A DNA stretch of 64,000 nucleotides, taken from contig JAGQKV010000019.1 in NCBI GenBank assembly GCA_020429915.1, positions 85,727 through 149,726 on the forward strand, read 5' to 3'. Below the pieces are notes generated by a model. That model ran no database searches, had not been told where the DNA came from, and saw nothing but the letters and a program-made list of their open reading frames with translations. A program made the position numbers and the translations under genes. Below are positions 25,548-55,370 of the stretch, in pieces (the first letter of the stretch is position 1; the number at the start of each line of letters is the position of its first letter). Source of the stretch: Candidatus Omnitrophota bacterium (GTDB taxonomy: Bacteria; Omnitrophota; Gorgyraeia; Zapsychrales; Zapsychraceae).

Positions 25548-25621
25548 GGGCCTTTAGCTCAGTCGGTTAGAGCAGCTGACTCATAATCAGTTGGTCCCTG
25601 GTTCAAGTCCAGGAAGGCCCA
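25548..25621 (+). tRNA. tRNA-Met (anticodon CAT). Elongator-type anticodon stem. Could alternatively be tRNA-Ile2 (lysidine).
   Basis: Cloverleaf: acceptor GGGCCTT/AAGGCCC, D-arm GCTC...GAGC, anticodon loop CTCATAA, T-arm CCTGG-TTCAAGT-CCAGG, discriminator A. No encoded CCA. Confidence 0.85.
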
Positions 25622-26389: not shown

Positions 26390-26853
26390 GCCAAGGGGAA
26401 CTGCTCATCAACATTGACGGGGCGTCGAGCGGCAATCCCGGTCCGGCCGGAATCGGGGTGGTGATCCGGCAGGACGGCACGATCATCCACGAAATATCCA
26501 AGGCCATCGGTGAGGCCACCAACAATGTGGCGGAATACACCGCGTTGGTATACGCTTTACAGGAGGCCCTGATCCGACGGGCCGACACGGTCACGGTGAT
26601 CACCGACAGCGAGTTGGTGCACCGGCAGGTGACCGGAGAATACAAGGTCAAGAACGCGAATATCAAACCGCTCTTTGAACAGGTTCAGCATCTGTTGCGC
26701 GGCTTTAAGCAGGTGAAAATGAAACACGTGCTGCGCGAAGAAAACAAGGATGCGGACCGGTTAGCGACAAAATCGATCAAGTCTAAGCAGGCACAAGTGG
26801 TTGCCCCGTTGTTCGATAACCACGGGGAGGAAAGTCCGAGCTCCACAGGATGA
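26386..26853 (+). CDS. rnhA: Ribonuclease HI.
   Basis: TTG start overlapping the upstream stop, with a GAGGA RBS. INIDGASSGNPGPAGIGVV...EYTALVYAL...VITDSELV...DADRLA catalytic motifs. The 3' end runs into rnpB. Confidence 0.75.
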   Translation: MSQGELLINIDGASSGNPGPAGIGVVIRQDGTIIHEISKAIGEATNNVAEYTALVYALQEALIRRADTVTVITDSELVHRQVTGEYKVKNANIKPLFEQVQHLLRGFKQVKMKHVLREENKDADRLATKSIKSKQAQVVAPLFDNHGEESPSSTG

Positions 26854-27152
26854 TGCACCCAGGTAACGCTGGGCCCCGCTGTCAGCGGGAGGATTAGAGC
26901 TACAGTGACGATACTTGGCGATCGGTCGGCGACCAATCGCCTTGGGTGAAACGAGCAATCTCTGCATGGAGCAATGCTAAATAGGCAGAAACTTCGGTGA
27001 TGCTGCGCATCACCGTGACGAACTGATCCGGTTCGTTTGATCTGCGGGTAGGCTGCAAGAGTTCGCGGAGTGATCCGCGAAGTCAGTTGAATAACCACTC
27101 TTGGCGTTCTGACGAACGCCTTGCACTCAACTCGGCTTATGTCTGCTGTGAC
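26781..27152 (+). ncRNA. rnpB: RNase P RNA, bacterial type A (M1 RNA homolog).
   Basis: P4 5' strand GGAAAGTCCGAGCTCC (26828-) pairs with ACTCGGCTTATG (27130-), showing a compensatory CCGAG/CTCGG change. Also GGGTGAAA, GGGTAGGCTGC and GGTAACGC conserved blocks. Ends approximate, set by a putative P1 helix. Confidence 0.8.
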
Positions 27153-27294
27153 ACCGTTCCGGTTCAGGCCTTCGGGCCTGATACCGGATCCGTCATGATC
27201 CCCGGCCGCGGGGCGGAAAATTTAGCGATCGTTAAGATAAAGTCACACAAATAGGAAACGGGTTCCCTTCGAGGGACCATGGAGGAGGACGTCA

Positions 27295-28050
27295 ATGTCA
27301 GGACATAGTAAATGGGCAAGTATTAAGCATAAAAAAGGCGCAGCTGACGCCAAGCGGGGTGCCGCCTTTTCGAAGATGGCCAAAGAGCTCACCGTTATCG
27401 CCAAAAACGGAGGAGGAAATCCCGACACGAACGCGACGCTGCGCAATGCCATCGACCGCGCCCGCGGTATCAACATGCCCAAGGACAAGATTGAGAACGC
27501 CATCAAGAAAGGCACGGGCGAGATCCCCGGTGTAACTTATGAGGAGATTTCTTTTGACGCCTACGGTCCGGGCGGTGTGGCCATGATGATTACCGGCCTG
27601 ACTGATAACAACAACCGCACCACTGCGGAGATCAAGGCCATTCTGAAACGCAAGAACGGAAGTTCCGCCGGTGCCGGGGCGACGTCGTTCCTGTTCTCCA
27701 AAACCGGATACATCTCCATCGAGAAGGACAAGGTCGGTGAAGATGAAATCATGGAAATCGCTATCGAGGCCGGCGCCGAAGATGTGAAGACGGACGGCGG
27801 CTTTTATGAAATCTATACGGATATCAGTAATCTGCAGGCCGTCAAGGAAGCCATCGCGGCGAAGGAGATCCCGGTTGTCACCGCCGAGATGACGATGATC
27901 CCCAGCACCACGGTCAAGCTGGAAGGCAATGACGCCAAGTCCCTGCTGGCCTTGGTGGAGGCGCTCGAAGAGCATGAGGACGTGCAGAACGTCTACGCGA
28001 ATTTTGAGATTTCTGACGAAGAAATGGAACGCATCGCGGCCGAAGAGTAA
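27295..28050 (+). CDS. yebC: YebC/PmpR-family transcriptional regulator.
   Basis: MSGHSKWASIKHKKGAADAKRG N-terminus. 251 aa. Precedes ruvC-ruvA as in many bacteria. Confidence 0.9.
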   Translation: MSGHSKWASIKHKKGAADAKRGAAFSKMAKELTVIAKNGGGNPDTNATLRNAIDRARGINMPKDKIENAIKKGTGEIPGVTYEEISFDAYGPGGVAMMITGLTDNNNRTTAEIKAILKRKNGSSAGAGATSFLFSKTGYISIEKDKVGEDEIMEIAIEAGAEDVKTDGGFYEIYTDISNLQAVKEAIAAKEIPVVTAEMTMIPSTTVKLEGNDAKSLLALVEALEEHEDVQNVYANFEISDEEMERIAAEE

Positions 28051-28526
28051 TGCGCATTGTCGGCGTTGATCCGGGGACTCGGGCCACGGGATACGGGTTC
28101 ATCGAAGCCCGTGGCAGCCGTCTGACATTGCTGGAGGTGGGCACCATCGTTCCCAAGGCCGCGGACGGGTTGCCGCAGCGGATCCACAAGATTTACTCCA
28201 TCCTCGATTCACTGATCGGACAGTACCAGCCGGAAATTCTTGTCCTGGAAAAGTTGTATTCGCATCACCGGCACCCCGCTACGGTGGCGGTGATCGGGCA
28301 TGTCCGCGGAGTCATTTGCCTGCTGACAGCCGCGCGGGGACTGCGGCTGGTTGAGCACAGCGCCAAACGGATTCGCAAAGCAGTTACGGGCAACGGGAAT
28401 GCCACCAAGGCCCAGACCCGGCGCATGATCGCCCATGTATTCGGTATCGATGAGAAGGTGTTGACCCTGGATGCCAGTGACGCGTTGGCCCTGGGGCTGG
28501 GCTACATTTACATGAACGGCAGGTGA
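28050..28526 (+). CDS. ruvC: Holliday junction resolvase RuvC.
   Basis: MRIVGVDPGTRATGYG...LVLEKLY... catalytic carboxylates. 158 aa. Confidence 0.92.
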   Translation: MRIVGVDPGTRATGYGFIEARGSRLTLLEVGTIVPKAADGLPQRIHKIYSILDSLIGQYQPEILVLEKLYSHHRHPATVAVIGHVRGVICLLTAARGLRLVEHSAKRIRKAVTGNGNATKAQTRRMIAHVFGIDEKVLTLDASDALALGLGYIYMNGR

Positions 28527-28527
28527 G

Positions 28528-29157
28528 ATGATTGTCAAAATCCGCGGACAACTGGTCGAAAAAAAGGAACATTCGGTTGTCTTGGGCGTACAGGGCCTAT
28601 ATTATGAAGTGATGGTACCGCAATCGGTGCTCCGCCGCATCGAAGAGGCGCCGGATGCCCCGCAGGAGATCGAATTGATCACGTATCATTATCTGCAGGT
28701 CAGCCAGTCCAGCGCCGTGCCGGTCCTGATCGGATTCTTGAACGAAATCGAATGCGAATTTTTCCAGCAGTTCATTAAGGTCTCGGGGATCGGTCCGCGA
28801 GCCGCCGTCAAGGCGATCAGCAAACCGATCAGCGAGATCACGCAGGCCATACACCAGGGGGACACAGCCAGCCTTAAGACACTGCCCGGCATAGGTTTGC
28901 AGCGCGCCAAGGAAATCGTGGCCAAGTTGCAGGATAAAGTCGGCAAATACGGCCTGATTCAGGATGCGGCATTGCCCGAAATCCCGGCTGATGCGGTGCC
29001 GGACTGGCAGAACGAAGCTCTGGATGTCTTACTGCAACTGCAGTACAAGAGACCCGAGGCGCAAGTGATGATCCAAAGAGCGCTTGAGCGCAACGAAAAG
29101 ATCAACTCGGCCCAGGAGCTTCTCAACGAAATCTATAAGCAAAAGGTGAGCGGTTAA
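28528..29157 (+). CDS. ruvA: Holliday junction DNA helicase subunit RuvA.
   Basis: 209 aa. MIVKIRGQLVEK OB-fold N-terminus and the helix-hairpin-helix region GIGPRAAVKAI/LPGIGLQRAKEIV. No ruvB follows. Confidence 0.9.
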   Translation: MIVKIRGQLVEKKEHSVVLGVQGLYYEVMVPQSVLRRIEEAPDAPQEIELITYHYLQVSQSSAVPVLIGFLNEIECEFFQQFIKVSGIGPRAAVKAISKPISEITQAIHQGDTASLKTLPGIGLQRAKEIVAKLQDKVGKYGLIQDAALPEIPADAVPDWQNEALDVLLQLQYKRPEAQVMIQRALERNEKINSAQELLNEIYKQKVSG

Positions 29158-30050
29158 TGGAGAATAATTCAACTGAACCTCTGCAGCACATTCAAGGTAC
29201 CGTAGAAGCCCTTCTCTTTGTCAATGAAAGACCTATCACGCTGGAACAGATTAAACGCACCCTGGTGACGGTGTCGCCAACGGAAATCAAGGCGGCCATT
29301 GCCGCGCTGAACGACGGCTATCAGGCCCGGCACGCCGGGATAACTATCGAGGAGATCGCGGGCGGATACCAGATGCTGAGCAATCCCAGTTACGTGTCTT
29401 ATATCCGTAAGTTTTACAAGACCAAGCATAAGGAAAAGTTGTCCAAACCGGCGCTGGAAACGTTGGCCATTATCGCTTACAAGCAGCCGGTCACGCGGGC
29501 TGACGTTGAGCTGATCCGCGGCGTCAATTCCGACGGTATCGTCGCCAATCTGCTGGACAAGGAACTGATCAAACTCGCCGGACGCAAGGACGTGCCGGGG
29601 CGGCCTTTCCTTTACGCCACCACCAAGCAGTTTCTGGAATACTTCGGATTAAAATCTCTGGATAATCTGCCCAATCTGGCTGAACTGGAGGCGTTGCAGA
29701 AGAATCGGGACGATGATCTCGCGGATGCCCAATCCGTCGACGGAATCCCGCCGGAGGAATTGCCGCTGAATGATTTGGAACGGCAAAAACAGTCGGCCAT
29801 CGCCAAGGCCGAGGCTGCGGCGCCCGCATCGGTTCCGCATACAGCGACCGAACCGGGGGAGCCCATTCAGGAGCTGGAAGAACTGGATCACAGTGGGCCG
29901 GAAGAGGCGGAAGTCCCCCGGAACGAGTCCGGCGAAGATACGGTAGACTCAATTAATGAACCGGCCGAACAGGAGGCCGAACCGGTGGGGGCATCCACGG
30001 AACAGACGCCGTCCACGGAATACGAGAGTGATGAGCCTAGACAGTCTTAG
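29157..30050 (+). CDS. scpB: Segregation and condensation protein B, with an acidic C-terminal extension.
   Basis: EALLFVNERPITLEQI...GGYQMLSNPSY...LETLAIIAYKQPVTRADVELIRGV winged-helix ScpB domains. No scpA in the window. Confidence 0.85.
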   Translation: MENNSTEPLQHIQGTVEALLFVNERPITLEQIKRTLVTVSPTEIKAAIAALNDGYQARHAGITIEEIAGGYQMLSNPSYVSYIRKFYKTKHKEKLSKPALETLAIIAYKQPVTRADVELIRGVNSDGIVANLLDKELIKLAGRKDVPGRPFLYATTKQFLEYFGLKSLDNLPNLAELEALQKNRDDDLADAQSVDGIPPEELPLNDLERQKQSAIAKAEAAAPASVPHTATEPGEPIQELEELDHSGPEEAEVPRNESGEDTVDSINEPAEQEAEPVGASTEQTPSTEYESDEPRQS

Positions 30051-41739: not shown

Positions 41740-42351
41740 ATGAAAAAACTGACCGCACTTATGGGAGCGCTGGTCCTGGCTGCCGTCGTCGGCACGGGCT
41801 TGGCGCAAGCCACCGTGCAAAACGGCGCCATGGCGCCGGACTTCACGCTGAAAGATTCCAACGGGAACACGCATTCGCTGTCCGATTTCAAAGGCAAGTA
41901 TGTTGTTCTGGAATGGGTCAACTTCGACTGCCCCTTCGTGAAGAAGCACTACGTTCCCGGCAACATGCAGGCCCTGCAAAAAGACCTGACCGCCAAAGGG
42001 GTCGTCTGGCTGTCGATCAATTCATCGGCGCCCGGCAAGCAGGGCAGTTATTCCCCCTCGGAAGTCAATCAGATCATGGAAAACAGCAGCGCCATGCCCA
42101 CCGCTTACCTGTTTGATTCCGACGGAAAAGTCGGAAAACAGTACGGCGCCAAGACGACACCGCATATGTTTGTGGTCGATCCGGAAGGTATGCTGGCTTA
42201 CCAGGGGGCTATCGACAGCATTCCCAGCTTTGATTCGGCTGATATCCCCAAGGCCCGCAATTACGTGACCGCCGCTATCGACAATCTGATGAGCGGAGAG
42301 CCGGTGGCCGACGCCGCGACCACCCCGTACGGCTGTTCGGTAAAGTACTAA
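41740..42351 (+). CDS. Secreted thioredoxin-fold (redoxin/AhpC-TSA-like) protein.
   Basis: 203 aa with a signal peptide. FKGKYVVLEWVNFDCPFV resembles the redoxin-family active-site context. Adjacent to dsbD. Confidence 0.55.
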   Translation: MKKLTALMGALVLAAVVGTGLAQATVQNGAMAPDFTLKDSNGNTHSLSDFKGKYVVLEWVNFDCPFVKKHYVPGNMQALQKDLTAKGVVWLSINSSAPGKQGSYSPSEVNQIMENSSAMPTAYLFDSDGKVGKQYGAKTTPHMFVVDPEGMLAYQGAIDSIPSFDSADIPKARNYVTAAIDNLMSGEPVADAATTPYGCSVKY

Positions 42352-53525: not shown

Positions 53526-54722
53526 ATGACCGACCCGACGCAGATCCCCTTCCTGATTAAGCTCCTCGATGACGAATCACCCAACATTCAAAGCAAAGTC
53601 AAAAGAGAGCTCGATGCCTTCGGCCCCCTGCTGATGAGTGAACTGCGCAAGATTTCATTTCCGCTGTCCAACAGACAAAAGGAAAGTCTGGATCTGATTT
53701 TCGAACGCCAGCAACGGGCGCAGCTGCGTCGTTTGTGGTCGAGCTGGTACACGGTGGAAGGAGGGTATCCCCGGTTGGAGGCGGCCTTGAGCCTTATCAG
53801 CGACTATCTGACCGCCTATGATTACGACATCCGTCTCAGCGGTTTATTGGATGATTTGGCGACGCAATACCGGCGCAAGTACAACAGCAAGGATCCGCGA
53901 CTGCTCGCGCAATTTCTGTTTGATGATCTGGGCATGCAGGGAAACGATGAGGATTACTACAATCCCCAGAACAGCAATATGAACTTTGTCATCAACGAGA
54001 AACAGGGGATCCCCATCAGTCTGGTGAGTATTTACATGCTCGTCGGATACCGGGTGGGAATACCCATTGAGGGATGCCCGTTTCCGGGACATTTCCTGGC
54101 CCGTATCGAATTGTACGGCCAGAACGCGTTTATTGACTGTTACAGTAACGGTCAGCTAATCATGGAAAGCGATTTTCTCAAAGCCCGTGACGAGATCGCC
54201 GAAAACATCACCGATACCCTGTATGAACAAATCTCGACCGAGGCCATGATCCGCCGGTATCTGGCGAACCTGGTGCGAGCCTTCCAGATCGAGGAGGACC
54301 TGACATCCGCCAATTTTGTCGCCGGGCTGTTCGAGGACCTGGAATTCCGCATCGCCAACAAGACCTTCGAAACCATCACGCCGGATCAGATCATCAATTG
54401 CAGTGAACCGCGCTATCTTCCCGGGAATCTGGTTAAACACAGCCGCTACGGTTACCGGGCTATTGTCGTGGACATCGATCCGGAATGCCGGGCCACGGAC
54501 GAATGGTACTATGGTAATCAAACCCAACCATCCCGTGAGCAGCCGTGGTTTCACCTGCTGGTCCACGATTCGGAACAGGTCACGTATGTGGCGGAAAACA
54601 ATTTATTGCCGGATGAGTCCCGTCACGAGATCAAGCATCCGCTGTTATCCTATTTCTTCGTCCGCTCGGATGGAGGCGCTTATCTGCGCAACGAGAATCA
54701 GTGGCCGGAAACGGATTTTTAG
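53526..54722 (+). CDS. Fusion protein: N-terminal transglutaminase-like/SirB1-type domain plus C-terminal YccV/HspQ-like (hemimethylated-DNA-binding-type) domain.
   Basis: 398 aa. C-terminus VKHSRYGYRAIVVDIDPEC...WFHLLVHD closely resembles HspQ (RHSLLGYLGVVVDVDPEY...WYHVVMED). Confidence 0.65.
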   Translation: MTDPTQIPFLIKLLDDESPNIQSKVKRELDAFGPLLMSELRKISFPLSNRQKESLDLIFERQQRAQLRRLWSSWYTVEGGYPRLEAALSLISDYLTAYDYDIRLSGLLDDLATQYRRKYNSKDPRLLAQFLFDDLGMQGNDEDYYNPQNSNMNFVINEKQGIPISLVSIYMLVGYRVGIPIEGCPFPGHFLARIELYGQNAFIDCYSNGQLIMESDFLKARDEIAENITDTLYEQISTEAMIRRYLANLVRAFQIEEDLTSANFVAGLFEDLEFRIANKTFETITPDQIINCSEPRYLPGNLVKHSRYGYRAIVVDIDPECRATDEWYYGNQTQPSREQPWFHLLVHDSEQVTYVAENNLLPDESRHEIKHPLLSYFFVRSDGGAYLRNENQWPETDF

Positions 54723-54734
54723 TGATTTCAGGGC

Positions 54735-54763
54735 TTGACGGCCACATTTATGTGTGGTATAAA
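54735..54763 (+). promoter_or_regulatory. lexA promoter with an embedded palindrome (candidate SOS operator).
   Basis: TTGACG, 17-nt spacer, TATAAA. The spacer contains CCACA-N6-TGTGG (54742-54757), positioned for autorepression. Confidence 0.5.
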
Positions 54764-54770
54764 GTAGGCT

Positions 54771-55370
54771 ATGAACAGTCCCCGACTCACTAATAAGCAG
54801 AAAGACGTCCTCAAATACATTTACCGAAGTATCCGGCAAAACAAGCTGCCGCCCACCATTCGCGAAATCGCCCGCGAATTCGGATTTTCTTCCACAGGAA
54901 CTGTCAGGGATTATCTAAAAGCCTTGGTTTCCAAAGGTTACATCCGCATCACTGCCAACAAGTCACGGGCTATTGAGCTGGTCTCGGAAAGTCTGTTTTC
55001 GCTGCCAATTCTTGGCCGCGTGCAGGCCGGGTTGCCGACATTGGCCGTAGAGGAGATCGAAGGCTACCTGAATCTCGATGCCCTTCTGTTTGAGGAGGAA
55101 TCGGCCTTTGCTCTGCGGGTCCGGGGCGACAGCATGAACGGTGCCGGCATCATGCCGGATGACCTGGTCCTCGTCCGCCGGCAAAATGTGGCCCAGACCG
55201 GCGAGACCGTGGTGGCGCTCATTGACGAGGAAGCCACCGTCAAATACCTCCAAAAGCAAAACGGCGGCTATGTCCTGCAGGCCGCCAATCCCGCCTATCC
55301 GCCTATTCCGGTCGACGAAAACGTGTCCATTATCGGCAAGGTGATCAGCGTCGTCCGCCGTTACCGCTAA
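54771..55370 (+). CDS. lexA: LexA repressor.
   Basis: 199 aa. N-terminal winged HTH (LTNKQKDVLKYI...IREIAREFGFSSTGTV). Cleavage-site region. S24 peptidase motifs GDSMNGAGI and K in VVALIDEEATVKYL. Confidence 0.9.
   Translation: MNSPRLTNKQKDVLKYIYRSIRQNKLPPTIREIAREFGFSSTGTVRDYLKALVSKGYIRITANKSRAIELVSESLFSLPILGRVQAGLPTLAVEEIEGYLNLDALLFEEESAFALRVRGDSMNGAGIMPDDLVLVRRQNVAQTGETVVALIDEEATVKYLQKQNGGYVLQAANPAYPPIPVDENVSIIGKVISVVRRYR

What the first reader, a model, noticed from the sequence alone, without database searches (positions are those of the whole stretch)
54735..54771. Non-canonical palindrome (CCACA-N6-TGTGG) inside the lexA promoter spacer: candidate lineage-specific SOS box
The lexA promoter reads TTGACG, 17 nt, TATAAA. 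Its spacer holds the inverted repeat CCACATTTATGTGTGG.

LexA genes are almost always autoregulated through an operator that overlaps the -35/-10 region. This repeat does not match the E. coli box (CTGT-N8-ACAG), the Cheo box (GAAC-N4-GTTC), the alpha-proteobacterial box (GTTC-N7-GTTC) or the cyanobacterial box. It may define the LexA box of this lineage.

I did not see the same motif upstream of yebC-ruvC-ruvA in this window, so the SOS regulon content is open.
Basis: seen in the sequence. Interest (0 to 1): 0.5.

Follow-up and report, generated by a model that had tools for sequence, protein, structure and literature searches.

The report
Undescribed LexA operator in Omnitrophota lexA promoter
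The small palindrome between the two promoter boxes of this lexA gene is almost certainly where the LexA repressor binds its own promoter, and the same sequence, not found in the searchable literature, marks lexA and several DNA-damage genes across the phylum Omnitrophota and in some Planctomycetota.

Summary
TTGACG (54735-54740), a 17-nt spacer and TATAAA (54758-54763) precede a canonical, cleavable lexA (54771-55370). The spacer holds CCACATTTATGTGTGG (54742-54757).

Alone this is weak: about 3% of random 17-mers hold a 5+5 inverted repeat. Comparison settles it.
- The window is Candidatus Omnitrophota. In 34 of 35 orthologous lexA promoters the same position reads CCACAC-N4-GTGTGG (at least 10 of 12 bases), always between -35 and -10.
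- A metagenome scan for the promoter-plus-palindrome module gave 120 hits. 83 sit directly before lexA; many drive lexA-imuB-C-like-polY operons.
- Other hits precede recN, a dinD homologue, a stand-alone imuB-C-like-polY operon, and restriction-modification or mobile-element genes.
- The box also occurs in a Planctomycetota clade.
- Every box-associated LexA examined carries the helix-3 signature ST(G/A)(T/S)VRD(Y/H), with one variant.
- One syntenic Planctomycetota orthologue with VHD instead of VRD has a Cheo-type CGAAC-N4-GTTC at the same spot.

So this is a LexA operator with Cheo geometry (AC-N4-GT core kept) but a new consensus. No paper describing it was found.

The parts
54735..54740 (+). 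-35 hexamer TTGACG of the lexA promoter
   Evidence: Read. TTGAC(A/G/T) is conserved 2-3 nt upstream of the palindrome in all 35 orthologous promoters.
54742..54757 (.). Predicted LexA operator CCACATTTATGTGTGG, an 11/12 match to the clade consensus CCACAC-N4-GTGTGG, filling the -35/-10 spacer
   Evidence: Scores 21.3 bits on a PWM built from 34 site sequences (this site and one duplicate included), whose sites range 12.6-24.6 bits. It is conserved in position and sequence in 34 of 35 orthologues. 83 of 120 metagenome matches to the module precede lexA. The box co-varies with the LexA recognition helix.
54755..54763 (+). Extended -10 element TGgTATAAA. The TG (54755-54756) belongs to the right operator arm; the hexamer TATAAA is 54758-54763.
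   Evidence: Read. TGG followed by TAnnnN is invariant in the orthologues.
54771..54773 (+). lexA start codon ATG, 7 nt after the -10 hexamer. It is the predicted transcription start, so the mRNA would be leaderless with no Shine-Dalgarno sequence.
   Evidence: Read. In 100 of 119 box-carrying lexA promoters the first start codon assigned in the lexA frame lies no more than 10 nt after the -10 hexamer, with a mode of 6-7 nt; 84 fall at 5-10 nt.
54771..55370 (+). lexA, 199 aa. Helix 3 reads S41-T-G-T-V-R-D-Y48. Cleavage site Ala86-Gly87, Ser121 and Lys158 are present.
   Evidence: Pfam hits. Alignment to E. coli LexA structures (7b5g, 3jso; E = 6e-37) shows the Ala-Gly, Ser and Lys residues conserved and the helix-3 residues replaced.

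Best explanation
The palindrome is the autoregulatory operator (SOS box) of LexA in this Omnitrophota bacterium.

Proposed mechanism:
- A LexA dimer binds one winged-helix domain to each arm of CCACAC-N4-GTGTGG.
- The site fills the whole spacer between -35 and -10, and its right arm supplies the TG of the extended -10. Bound LexA would therefore exclude RNA polymerase and shut off the lexA mRNA, which is predicted to be leaderless.
- After DNA damage, RecA-ssDNA filaments trigger LexA self-cleavage at Ala86-Gly87 (Ser121/Lys158). The operator clears and lexA is transcribed.
- In relatives the same happens to lexA-imuB-C-like-polY, recN, dinD-like and several restriction-modification or mobile-element genes.

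The box is a derivative of the Gram-positive Cheo box. Both have a pentamer-N4-pentamer layout and an AC-N4-GT core, but the arms read CACAC instead of CGAAC. It is associated with a recognition helix reading ST(G/A)(T/S)VRD(Y/H) instead of STS(T/S)VH..

Shown:
- the sequence anatomy;
- conservation of the site in orthologues;
- its association with lexA and damage genes;
- co-variation between the recognition helix and the box;
- intact catalytic residues in LexA.

Inferred:
- physical binding by LexA;
- repression by promoter occlusion;
- RecA-dependent induction;
- the leaderless transcription start.
For: 1. Identity of the gene and organism.
- The gene is a canonical LexA with the cleavage dyad.
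- The organism is Candidatus Omnitrophota. L003 from MAG HK-STAS-OMNI-4 is 99% identical, and source names agree.

2. Phylogenetic footprint.
- 35 Omnitrophota lexA loci were fetched by protein similarity alone (63-99% identity).
- 34 carry at least 10 of 12 bases of CCACAC-N4-GTGTGG, 1-3 nt after TTGAC(A/G/T) and immediately before TAnnnN.
- The flanks further upstream show no comparable conservation on inspection. The PWM holds 18.4 bits.

3. Specificity.
- In 201 kb of those loci, the only sites scoring at least 15 bits are the lexA promoters plus one extra promoter, L030:3044.
- In 810 kb of all related loci, only 2 sites with at most one mismatch lie outside such promoters, against about 1.8 expected by chance.

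4. Metagenome scan for TTGAC-N2-3-CCRCAC-N4-GNGTGG-TA.
83 have lexA directly downstream.
- The large cluster at about 48% identity is also named Omnitrophota.
- Of 39 such loci with at least 1.2 kb of downstream sequence, 28 continue into an ImuB-C-like gene of about 85 aa and then a Y-family polymerase gene.

5. Non-lexA targets.
- recN (L211; its nearest named relatives are Omnitrophota).
- A gene that NCBI names DNA damage-inducible protein D in an Omnitrophota MAG (L116).
- An ImuB-C-like-polY operon in Planctomycetota (L139, L213, L214).
- RhuM/Fic in Ca. Aceula lacicola, an Omnitrophota species (L178).

6. Co-variation.
- All 36 Omnitrophota LexAs have the helix ST(G/A)TVRD(Y/H); L034 has A at the third position. 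Their Clostridia relatives have STSTVH.. or STSSVQ.N, with AAAC/GAAC-N4-GTTT boxes.
- Planctomycetota LexAs with STG(S/T)VRD carry the box (L222, L223).
- The syntenic orthologue L224 (67% identical, helix STASVHD) has CCGAACGCCTGTTCTC at the same promoter position.

7. Prediction test.
- LexAs were chosen by helix alone. P0298 (VRD helix, L229) has the box, and P0267, whose helix reads STGSTRD rather than VRD, has an 11/12 box (L230).
- The NGV-type control P0303 (L231) lacks it.

8. A control pattern with the right arm reversed gave 3 viral-contig hits, against 17 for the palindromic pattern.
Against: - No binding or expression experiment exists; everything here is comparative.
- Within this 64-kb window no other promoter carries the box, including yebC-ruvC-ruvA.
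- recN in four other Omnitrophota contigs lacks it. The regulon is therefore small or variable.
- recA, uvrA and dinB of this genome could not be examined.
- One VRD-helix LexA (P0301, L228) has no box within 308 nt upstream.
- The right arm overlaps an extended -10, so part of its conservation could be a promoter constraint.
- The same module occurs in a family of phage contigs that includes human-gut samples. Omnitrophota are not expected there, so another protein may recognise a similar palindrome.
- The metagenome pattern included promoter hexamers. It could therefore only find promoter-embedded sites.
Confidence: 0.85

Rival explanations
1. The palindrome is the operator of another transcription factor that controls lexA and the other genes. 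Candidates are a phage-type or mobile-element repressor, or an unknown global regulator.
For: Many non-lexA targets are restriction-modification, NYN, RhuM/Fic or Bro-N genes typical of mobile elements. The module also occurs in phage contigs, some from human gut. One VRD-helix LexA lacks the box.
Against: - 83 of 120 hits lie directly before lexA.
- The box changes to a Cheo-type box exactly where the LexA recognition helix changes, with synteny otherwise conserved.
- All box-associated LexAs share one helix signature.
- LexA control of prophage and mobile-element genes is well established elsewhere (general knowledge).
Confidence: 0.07
2. The conservation reflects promoter function only, and the dyad symmetry is incidental. 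The right arm would act as an extended -10 (TGTGn) and the left arm as a spacer or -35-proximal element.
For: The right arm overlaps TGn-TAnnnN in every case. About 3% of random 17-mers hold such a repeat.
Against: - The left arm CCACAC carries 1.1-1.7 bits per position at spacer positions where sigma-70 promoters show little sequence preference (the promoter point is general knowledge).
- The uvrD-like promoters next to lexA in the same genomes have TATAAT without the palindrome.
- The reversed-arm control pattern is about 6-fold rarer.
- L224 keeps the promoter but replaces both arms with a different palindrome.
Confidence: 0.03
3. The palindrome is a chance feature of this particular spacer and has no function.
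For: There is a single copy in the window, and one-mismatch copies are not enriched.
Against: The site is conserved in 34 of 35 orthologues that share as little as 63% LexA identity, and in a second phylum.
Confidence: 0.01

Closest known systems
Cheo box / Gram-positive LexA (DinR) box, CGAAC-N4-GTTCG (Firmicutes, Actinobacteria, Chloroflexi)
   Same: Both are palindromes of two pentamers separated by 4 bp, with an AC-N4-GT core and A/T-rich spacers (AAAT, ATTT). The site overlaps the lexA core promoter. The LexA protein's best non-Omnitrophota relatives are Clostridia LexAs at 43-48% identity. A syntenic Planctomycetota orthologue uses a Cheo-type box at the same place.
   Different: The arms read C-A-C-A-C instead of C-G-A-A-C, two changes per half-site, plus an extra conserved outer C/G. 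No Cheo match within one mismatch exists in the promoter. The recognition helix is STGTVRD rather than STS(T/S)VH..
Verrucomicrobia LexA box TGTTC-N4-GAACA (Erill et al. 2016, PMC4951493)
   Same: It comes from the same PVC superphylum. It is a spaced-dyad pentamer-N4-pentamer variant of the Gram-positive motif, defined first by comparing lexA, recA and imuA promoters. That paper attributes the change in specificity to helix-3 residues.
   Different: The arm sequence and arm orientation differ. The Verrucomicrobia motif was confirmed by EMSA and mutagenesis, whereas this one was not. There recA carries the box; here recA could not be examined. Tandem sites are common there, whereas here there is a single site inside the spacer.
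Cyanobacterial LexA box RGTAC-N3-DGTWCB (as named in the finding; I recall it as AGTAC-N4-GTACT)
   Same: It has the same 14-bp dyad geometry and AC-N4-GT core.
   Different: The arms read GTAC rather than CACAC (no match near the promoter).
E. coli SOS box CTGT-N8-ACAG with LexA structure 3JSO
   Same: The protein has the same architecture and catalytic residues. Autoregulation is through an operator overlapping the lexA promoter.
   Different: Spacing is 8 rather than 4 bp and the arms differ. The residues at E. coli helix-3 positions 41, 42, 44 and 45 (N, A, E, E) are G, T, R, D here. That these four residues contact the bases in 3JSO is recalled from memory, not checked here.
lexA-imuB-C-polY damage-inducible cassette (Geobacter sulfurreducens; also noted in Deferribacteres and Planctomycetes, PMC6511836)
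   Same: In 28 of 39 informative relatives the box-carrying promoter drives lexA, an ImuB-C-like gene of about 85 aa, and a Y-family polymerase gene.
   Different: Geobacter LexA uses a different box (GGTT-N10-AACC, as cited in PMC8565304). In this window lexA stands alone, and no polY gene is present in the 64 kb.

Membership tests
LexA autoregulatory operator (SOS box) | Lies in the promoter of a lexA gene, overlapping core promoter elements | tested here: met
   The site at 54742-57 lies between the -35 (54735-40) and the -10 (54758-63) of lexA.
LexA autoregulatory operator (SOS box) | Dyad (or direct-repeat) symmetry suited to a LexA dimer | tested here: met
   The window copy is a perfect 5+5 inverted repeat. 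The clade consensus is a 6+6 palindrome with a 4-bp spacer.
LexA autoregulatory operator (SOS box) | Conserved in orthologous lexA promoters | tested here: met
   34 of 35 Omnitrophota loci match at least 10 of 12 bases at the same position. 83 of 120 metagenome module hits precede lexA.
LexA autoregulatory operator (SOS box) | Also found upstream of other DNA-damage-response genes (a regulon) | tested here: inconclusive
   Met in relatives: polY operons, recN (L211) and a dinD homologue (L116). Not met in this window or for recN in four other Omnitrophota.
LexA autoregulatory operator (SOS box) | The cognate LexA has an intact self-cleavage site and Ser/Lys dyad | tested here: met
   Ala86-Gly87, Ser121 and Lys158 align with E. 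coli A84-G85, S119 and K156.
LexA autoregulatory operator (SOS box) | Specific binding by purified LexA, and damage-inducible expression | not testable with these tools
   This needs EMSA, DAP-seq or expression data. The organisms are uncultured.
Cheo box (GAAC-N4-GTTC) | Half-site GAAC/GTTC | tested here: not met
   No match within one mismatch in 54500-54800. The arms read CACA(C/T) and GTGTG.
Cheo box (GAAC-N4-GTTC) | 4-bp spacer between pentameric arms, with an AC-N4-GT core | tested here: met
   Shown by the consensus table. L224 has a Cheo-type box at the homologous position.
E. coli-type SOS box (CTGT-N8-ACAG) | CTGT/ACAG arms 8 bp apart | tested here: not met
   No match within one mismatch.
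Verrucomicrobia LexA box (TGTTC-N4-GAACA) | TGTTC/GAACA arms | tested here: not met
   No match within one mismatch.
MerR-type spacer operator | A palindrome inside an over-long (19-20 bp) -35/-10 spacer, allowing activation by DNA distortion | tested here: not met
   The spacer is 17 nt here and 17-18 nt in the orthologues.

The most novel reading that the evidence does not exclude
CCACAC-N4-GTGTGG is a previously undescribed LexA-binding motif shared by two PVC phyla, Omnitrophota and a Planctomycetota clade. It arose from the Cheo box through a change in the recognition helix (His to Arg in ..V-H-. versus ..V-R-D, plus Ser/Ala to Gly). Syntenic Planctomycetota orthologues that differ in both helix and box preserve a natural "before and after" pair. 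That pair would make the long-standing question of how LexA changes specificity directly testable. The motif also places restriction-modification and mobile-element genes under SOS control in these uncultured bacteria.
Probability: 0.6. Interest if true: 0.6.

Novelty: new variant of a known kind. Interest (0 to 1): 0.5.

Why it matters
LexA is the standard example of a transcription factor whose binding motif has changed repeatedly; a 2021 paper counts 17 motifs (PMC8565304). For the PVC superphylum only the Verrucomicrobia motif is documented. For Planctomycetes the literature says only that LexA does not use the E. coli box (PMC3108266).

A defined box for Omnitrophota and Planctomycetota would have three uses:
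- It lets the SOS regulon of these mostly uncultured phyla be predicted from MAGs.
- It shows that the core of that regulon is an error-prone polymerase cassette together with defence and mobile-element genes.
- It offers a helix/box switch pair for specificity experiments.

For this window, it explains the promoter anatomy of lexA, including a predicted leaderless transcript.

Tried and rejected
- **Window-only statistics.** Exact and one-mismatch counts and a PWM scan found no second credible site. The hits at 42160 and 46864 are intragenic.
- **Consensus promoter scanner.** It missed the promoter because of its T6 rule.
- **uvrD as a regulon member.** A UvrD-like helicase follows lexA in 12 loci. 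Several of these helicase genes have their own TATAAT 6-7 nt before the start and a terminator-like hairpin after lexA. Co-transcription is therefore not assumed.
- **recN as a conserved regulon member.** Rejected: four Omnitrophota recN promoters lack the box.
- **Human-gut phage family carrying the module.** The ORFs around the site in L104 gave no repressor or host clue.
- **Literature.**
  - Searches for LexA with Omnitrophica, Omnitrophota or Planctomycetota found nothing relevant.
  - A search for the sequence string GTGTGG returned only noise.
- **MerR-type activation.** Rejected because of the spacer length.
- **An RNA hairpin.** Rejected because the site lies upstream of the predicted transcription start.

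Full report
**1. The observation**

The window reads TTGACG (54735-54740), then the 17-nt spacer GCCACATTTATGTGTGG, then TATAAA (54758-54763). Seven more bases follow before the ATG at 54771 of a 199-aa ORF ending at 55370.

The ORF is a canonical LexA by Pfam: LexA_DNA_bind at 6e-21 and Peptidase_S24 at 2e-34. It aligns over its whole length to E. coli LexA structures such as 7b5g and 3jso at E = 6e-37. The cleavage site Ala-Gly (A86-G87), the nucleophile Ser121 and Lys158 are all conserved.

CCACA-N6-TGTGG at 54742-54757 is the only exact copy in the window. One-mismatch copies are not enriched: 4 were found against 1.43 expected, and 12 of 100 shuffles reach 4. About 3% of random 17-mers of this composition contain an inverted repeat with arms of at least 5.

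No E. coli, Cheo, alpha-proteobacterial, Verrucomicrobia or Bdellovibrio box occurs within one mismatch in 54500-54800. The only one-mismatch hits to the cyanobacterial and Leptospira patterns lie inside the upstream coding region.

**2. Organism and orthologous promoters**

The closest LexA proteins are named Candidatus Omnitrophota or Omnitrophica. A scan of one genome per species returned 36 Omnitrophota loci. These include L003 from MAG HK-STAS-OMNI-4, which is 99% identical, and others down to 63% identity.

In the 35 loci with upstream sequence, the promoter has one architecture: TTGAC(A/G/T), 1-3 nt, CCACAC-N4-G(T/A/G)GTGG, then immediately TAnnnN. Thirty-four loci match at least 10 of the 12 specified bases, and one (L001) matches 8 of 12. 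Upstream of the -35 the sequences show no comparable conservation on inspection.

A PWM built from 34 site sequences, which include the window's own site and one duplicate, holds 18.4 bits. The window site scores 21.3 bits, within a range of 12.6-24.6. The conserved unit is therefore CCACAC-N4-GTGTGG, and the window copy has T for C at 54747.

The left arm lies in the promoter spacer, where sigma-70 promoters normally show little sequence preference (general knowledge). The right arm contributes the TG of an extended -10.

**3. Specificity**

- In the window, the next-best PWM hits (14.3 and 12.3 bits) are intragenic. No hit lies upstream of yebC-ruvC-ruvA-scpB at 27295-30050.
- In 201 kb of Omnitrophota loci, the only sites of at least 15 bits are the lexA promoters and one further promoter, L030:3044. 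That promoter has the identical module and drives a transcript of about 100 nt ending in an intrinsic terminator.
- In 810 kb of all related loci, only two sites with at most one mismatch lie outside such promoters, against about 1.8 expected by chance.

**4. Scanning public collections for the module**

The pattern was TTGAC-N2-3-CCRCAC-N4-GNGTGG-TA.

Eighty-three have lexA directly downstream: 77 by BLAST, plus 6 recognised on inspection. Their LexAs are 36-75% identical to the window protein. The largest cluster, at about 48% identity, carries NCBI names from Candidatus Omnitrophota.

Nearly all hits have A at the R position and T, A or G at the N position. A few GC-rich hits look like chance matches: L146, L181, L185 and L210, which read CCGCAC and lie in GC-rich DNA, and probably L159.

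Among 39 lexA loci with at least 1.2 kb of downstream sequence, 28 continue into two further genes. The first encodes a protein of about 85 aa, homologous to the small protein before polY in L139 (weak DUF6504 hit). The second encodes a Y-family polymerase. This is the lexA-imuB-C-polY cassette described for Geobacter and noted in Planctomycetes (PMC6511836).

Non-lexA promoters carrying the box include:
- recN (L211). Its closest named relatives are Omnitrophota.
- A Bro-N protein that NCBI names DNA damage-inducible protein D in an Omnitrophota MAG (L116).
- A stand-alone imuB-C-like-polY operon in Planctomycetota (L139, L213, L214).
- RhuM/Fic proteins, one from Ca. Aceula lacicola, which is an Omnitrophota species.
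- NYN-domain proteins, three DNA methyltransferases, DpnI and an MTaX1-HNH protein.
- A tRNA-Val gene.

In viral contigs the palindromic module gave 17 hits in about seven families. All are perfect CCACAC..GTGTGG with good -10 boxes. A control pattern with the right arm reversed gave 3 hits.

**5. Range beyond Omnitrophota**

A high-GC group of box-associated LexAs (L120 and relatives) belongs to Planctomycetota MAGs; one is labelled Candidatus Brocadiia. Loci L222 and L223 carry gcgcTTGACATCCACACAT(T/A)TGTGTGGTATCCT before lexA-(85 aa)-polY.

**6. Co-variation of protein and site**

- All 36 Omnitrophota LexAs have helix 3 reading ST(G/A)TVRD(Y/H); L034 has A at the third position.
- Their Clostridia relatives, at 43-48% identity, read STSTVH.. 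or STSSVQ.N. Those promoters carry AAAC/GAAC-N4-GTTT/GTGC boxes.
- In the Planctomycetota clade almost all members read STG(S/T)VRD.
- The exception, P0290, reads STASVHD. Its locus L224 keeps the synteny (Macro-domain gene, lexA, 85-aa gene) and the same promoter frame. Between -35 and -10 it has CCGAACGCCTGTTCTC, a Cheo-type GAAC-N4-GTTC.
- Against E. coli LexA, positions 39-46 (S P N A A E E H) read S T G T V R D Y here. That these include the base-contacting residues of structure 3JSO is recalled from memory.

A prediction test selected LexAs by helix alone:
- P0298 (VRD helix, L229) has a 12/12 box.
- P0267 (helix STGSTRD, L230) has an 11/12 box, with two extra TGTGTGG half-sites.
- P0301 (VRD helix, L228) has none within 308 nt upstream.
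- The NGV-helix control P0303 (L231) has none.

**7. Mechanism**

The best-supported reading is a LexA operator embedded in the core promoter. A LexA dimer on the 16-bp dyad covers the whole -35/-10 spacer and the extended -10, excluding RNA polymerase. RecA-stimulated self-cleavage then relieves repression.

Of 119 box-carrying lexA promoters, 100 have the first assignable start codon in the lexA frame no more than 10 nt after the -10 hexamer, with a mode of 6-7 nt. Eighty-four fall at 5-10 nt. The other 16 were assigned an in-frame alternative start overlapping the -10, with the true ATG probably at 6-7 nt. In the window the distance is 7 nt. The lexA mRNA is therefore predicted to be leaderless, which also independently supports the promoter assignment.

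Binding, repression, induction and the transcription start are all inferred, not shown.

**8. Comparison with known systems and novelty**

The box has the geometry and the AC-N4-GT core of the Gram-positive (CGAAC-N4-GTTCG) and cyanobacterial motifs, but its arms read CACAC. It differs from the only published PVC motif, TGTTC-N4-GAACA of Verrucomicrobia (PMC4951493).

The 2021 count of 17 LexA motifs does not mention Omnitrophota (PMC8565304). The literature states only that Planctomycetes LexA does not use the E. coli motif (PMC3108266). Searches for LexA together with Omnitrophica, Omnitrophota or Planctomycetota found nothing relevant. Subscription-only papers could not be searched.

I classify this as a new variant of a known kind.

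**9. Caveats**

- There are no experimental data.
- There is only one site in this window, and recA, uvrA and dinB of this genome could not be reached.
- recN lacks the box in four other Omnitrophota.
- uvrD-like genes next to lexA seem to have their own promoters.
- One VRD-helix LexA has no box.
- A phage family that includes human-gut samples carries the same module and has an unknown host.

Noticed in passing
L218:1501-3165 and L221:1501-3168: recN in two divergent Omnitrophota contigs (GC 0.35 and 0.54) has a single in-frame TAA at the homologous position, about codon 300, just before K(Y/F)DIY..RKYGP. The same frame continues into the C-terminal SMC_N part, which gene callers list as a separate 144-146-aa ORF. 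Several other Omnitrophota RecN fragments end at 299-301 aa, while L220 has no stop there. This could be a split gene, readthrough or recoding.
   Followed up: partly
window 54758-54773; L001-L034 and L098-L223 lexA promoters; uvrD-like promoters in L011, L015, L022, L034: Start codons lie 6-7 nt after the -10 hexamer with no Shine-Dalgarno sequence. This holds in about 84% of 119 lexA promoters and in neighbouring helicase genes. Leaderless mRNAs therefore seem common in Omnitrophota.
   Followed up: partly
L109, L112, L189, L137, L174, L100, L184, L194, L178, L106, L116: Box-carrying promoters sit in front of restriction-modification and mobile-element genes: Dcm, an N6/N4 methylase, a D12 Dam-type methylase, DpnI, MTaX1-HNH, NYN, RhuM-Fic and Bro-N/DinD-like genes. 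This suggests SOS control of defence and mobile genes in these phyla.
   Followed up: partly
L030:3030-3165 (same as L174): In Omnitrophica WOR_2 GWA2_47_8 a second box-carrying promoter drives a transcript of about 100 nt. It ends in the terminator CCTTCGCA-N9-TGCGAAGG-T6. It could encode a peptide of about 30 aa or a small RNA, and it lies upstream of an MTaX1-HNH gene.
   Followed up: no
L191:1-131: A box-carrying promoter lies about 15 nt upstream of a tRNA-Val gene with the unusual anticodon AAC.
   Followed up: no
L082-L097 (viral contigs), L104, L166, L179: A family of low-GC phage contigs, including one from a human-gut metagenome, carries TTGACGTACCACACGAATGTGTGGTATAAT. It sits before a 67-aa gene and a 408-aa gene that has no Pfam match. 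Host and binding protein are unknown, and Omnitrophota are not expected in the gut.
   Followed up: partly
L007, L011, L013, L015-L018, L020, L022, L028, L033, L034 (downstream of lexA): A UvrD/PcrA-like helicase gene (650-685 aa) lies downstream of lexA on the same strand in 12 Omnitrophota loci. In seven of them it is 34-133 nt away. Several have their own -10 box.
   Followed up: partly
window 26784-27153: A bacterial RNase P RNA (class A, 149 bits) lies directly upstream of yebC-ruvC-ruvA-scpB at 27295-30050. A tRNA gene is at 25548-25621.
   Followed up: yes
window 53526-54722: The gene immediately upstream of lexA encodes a fusion of a transglutaminase-like domain (Transglut_core2) and a YccV-like hemimethylated-DNA-binding domain. 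The same gene end (..W P.. D F stop) precedes lexA in several relatives (L001, L002, L004, L019, L029).
   Followed up: no
L230:520-600: In the Planctomycetota lexA promoter with helix STGSTRD, the main box (CCACACATAAATGTGG) is followed by two extra half-sites, TTGTGTGG and ATGTGTGG, downstream of the -10. These may be auxiliary LexA sites.
   Followed up: no
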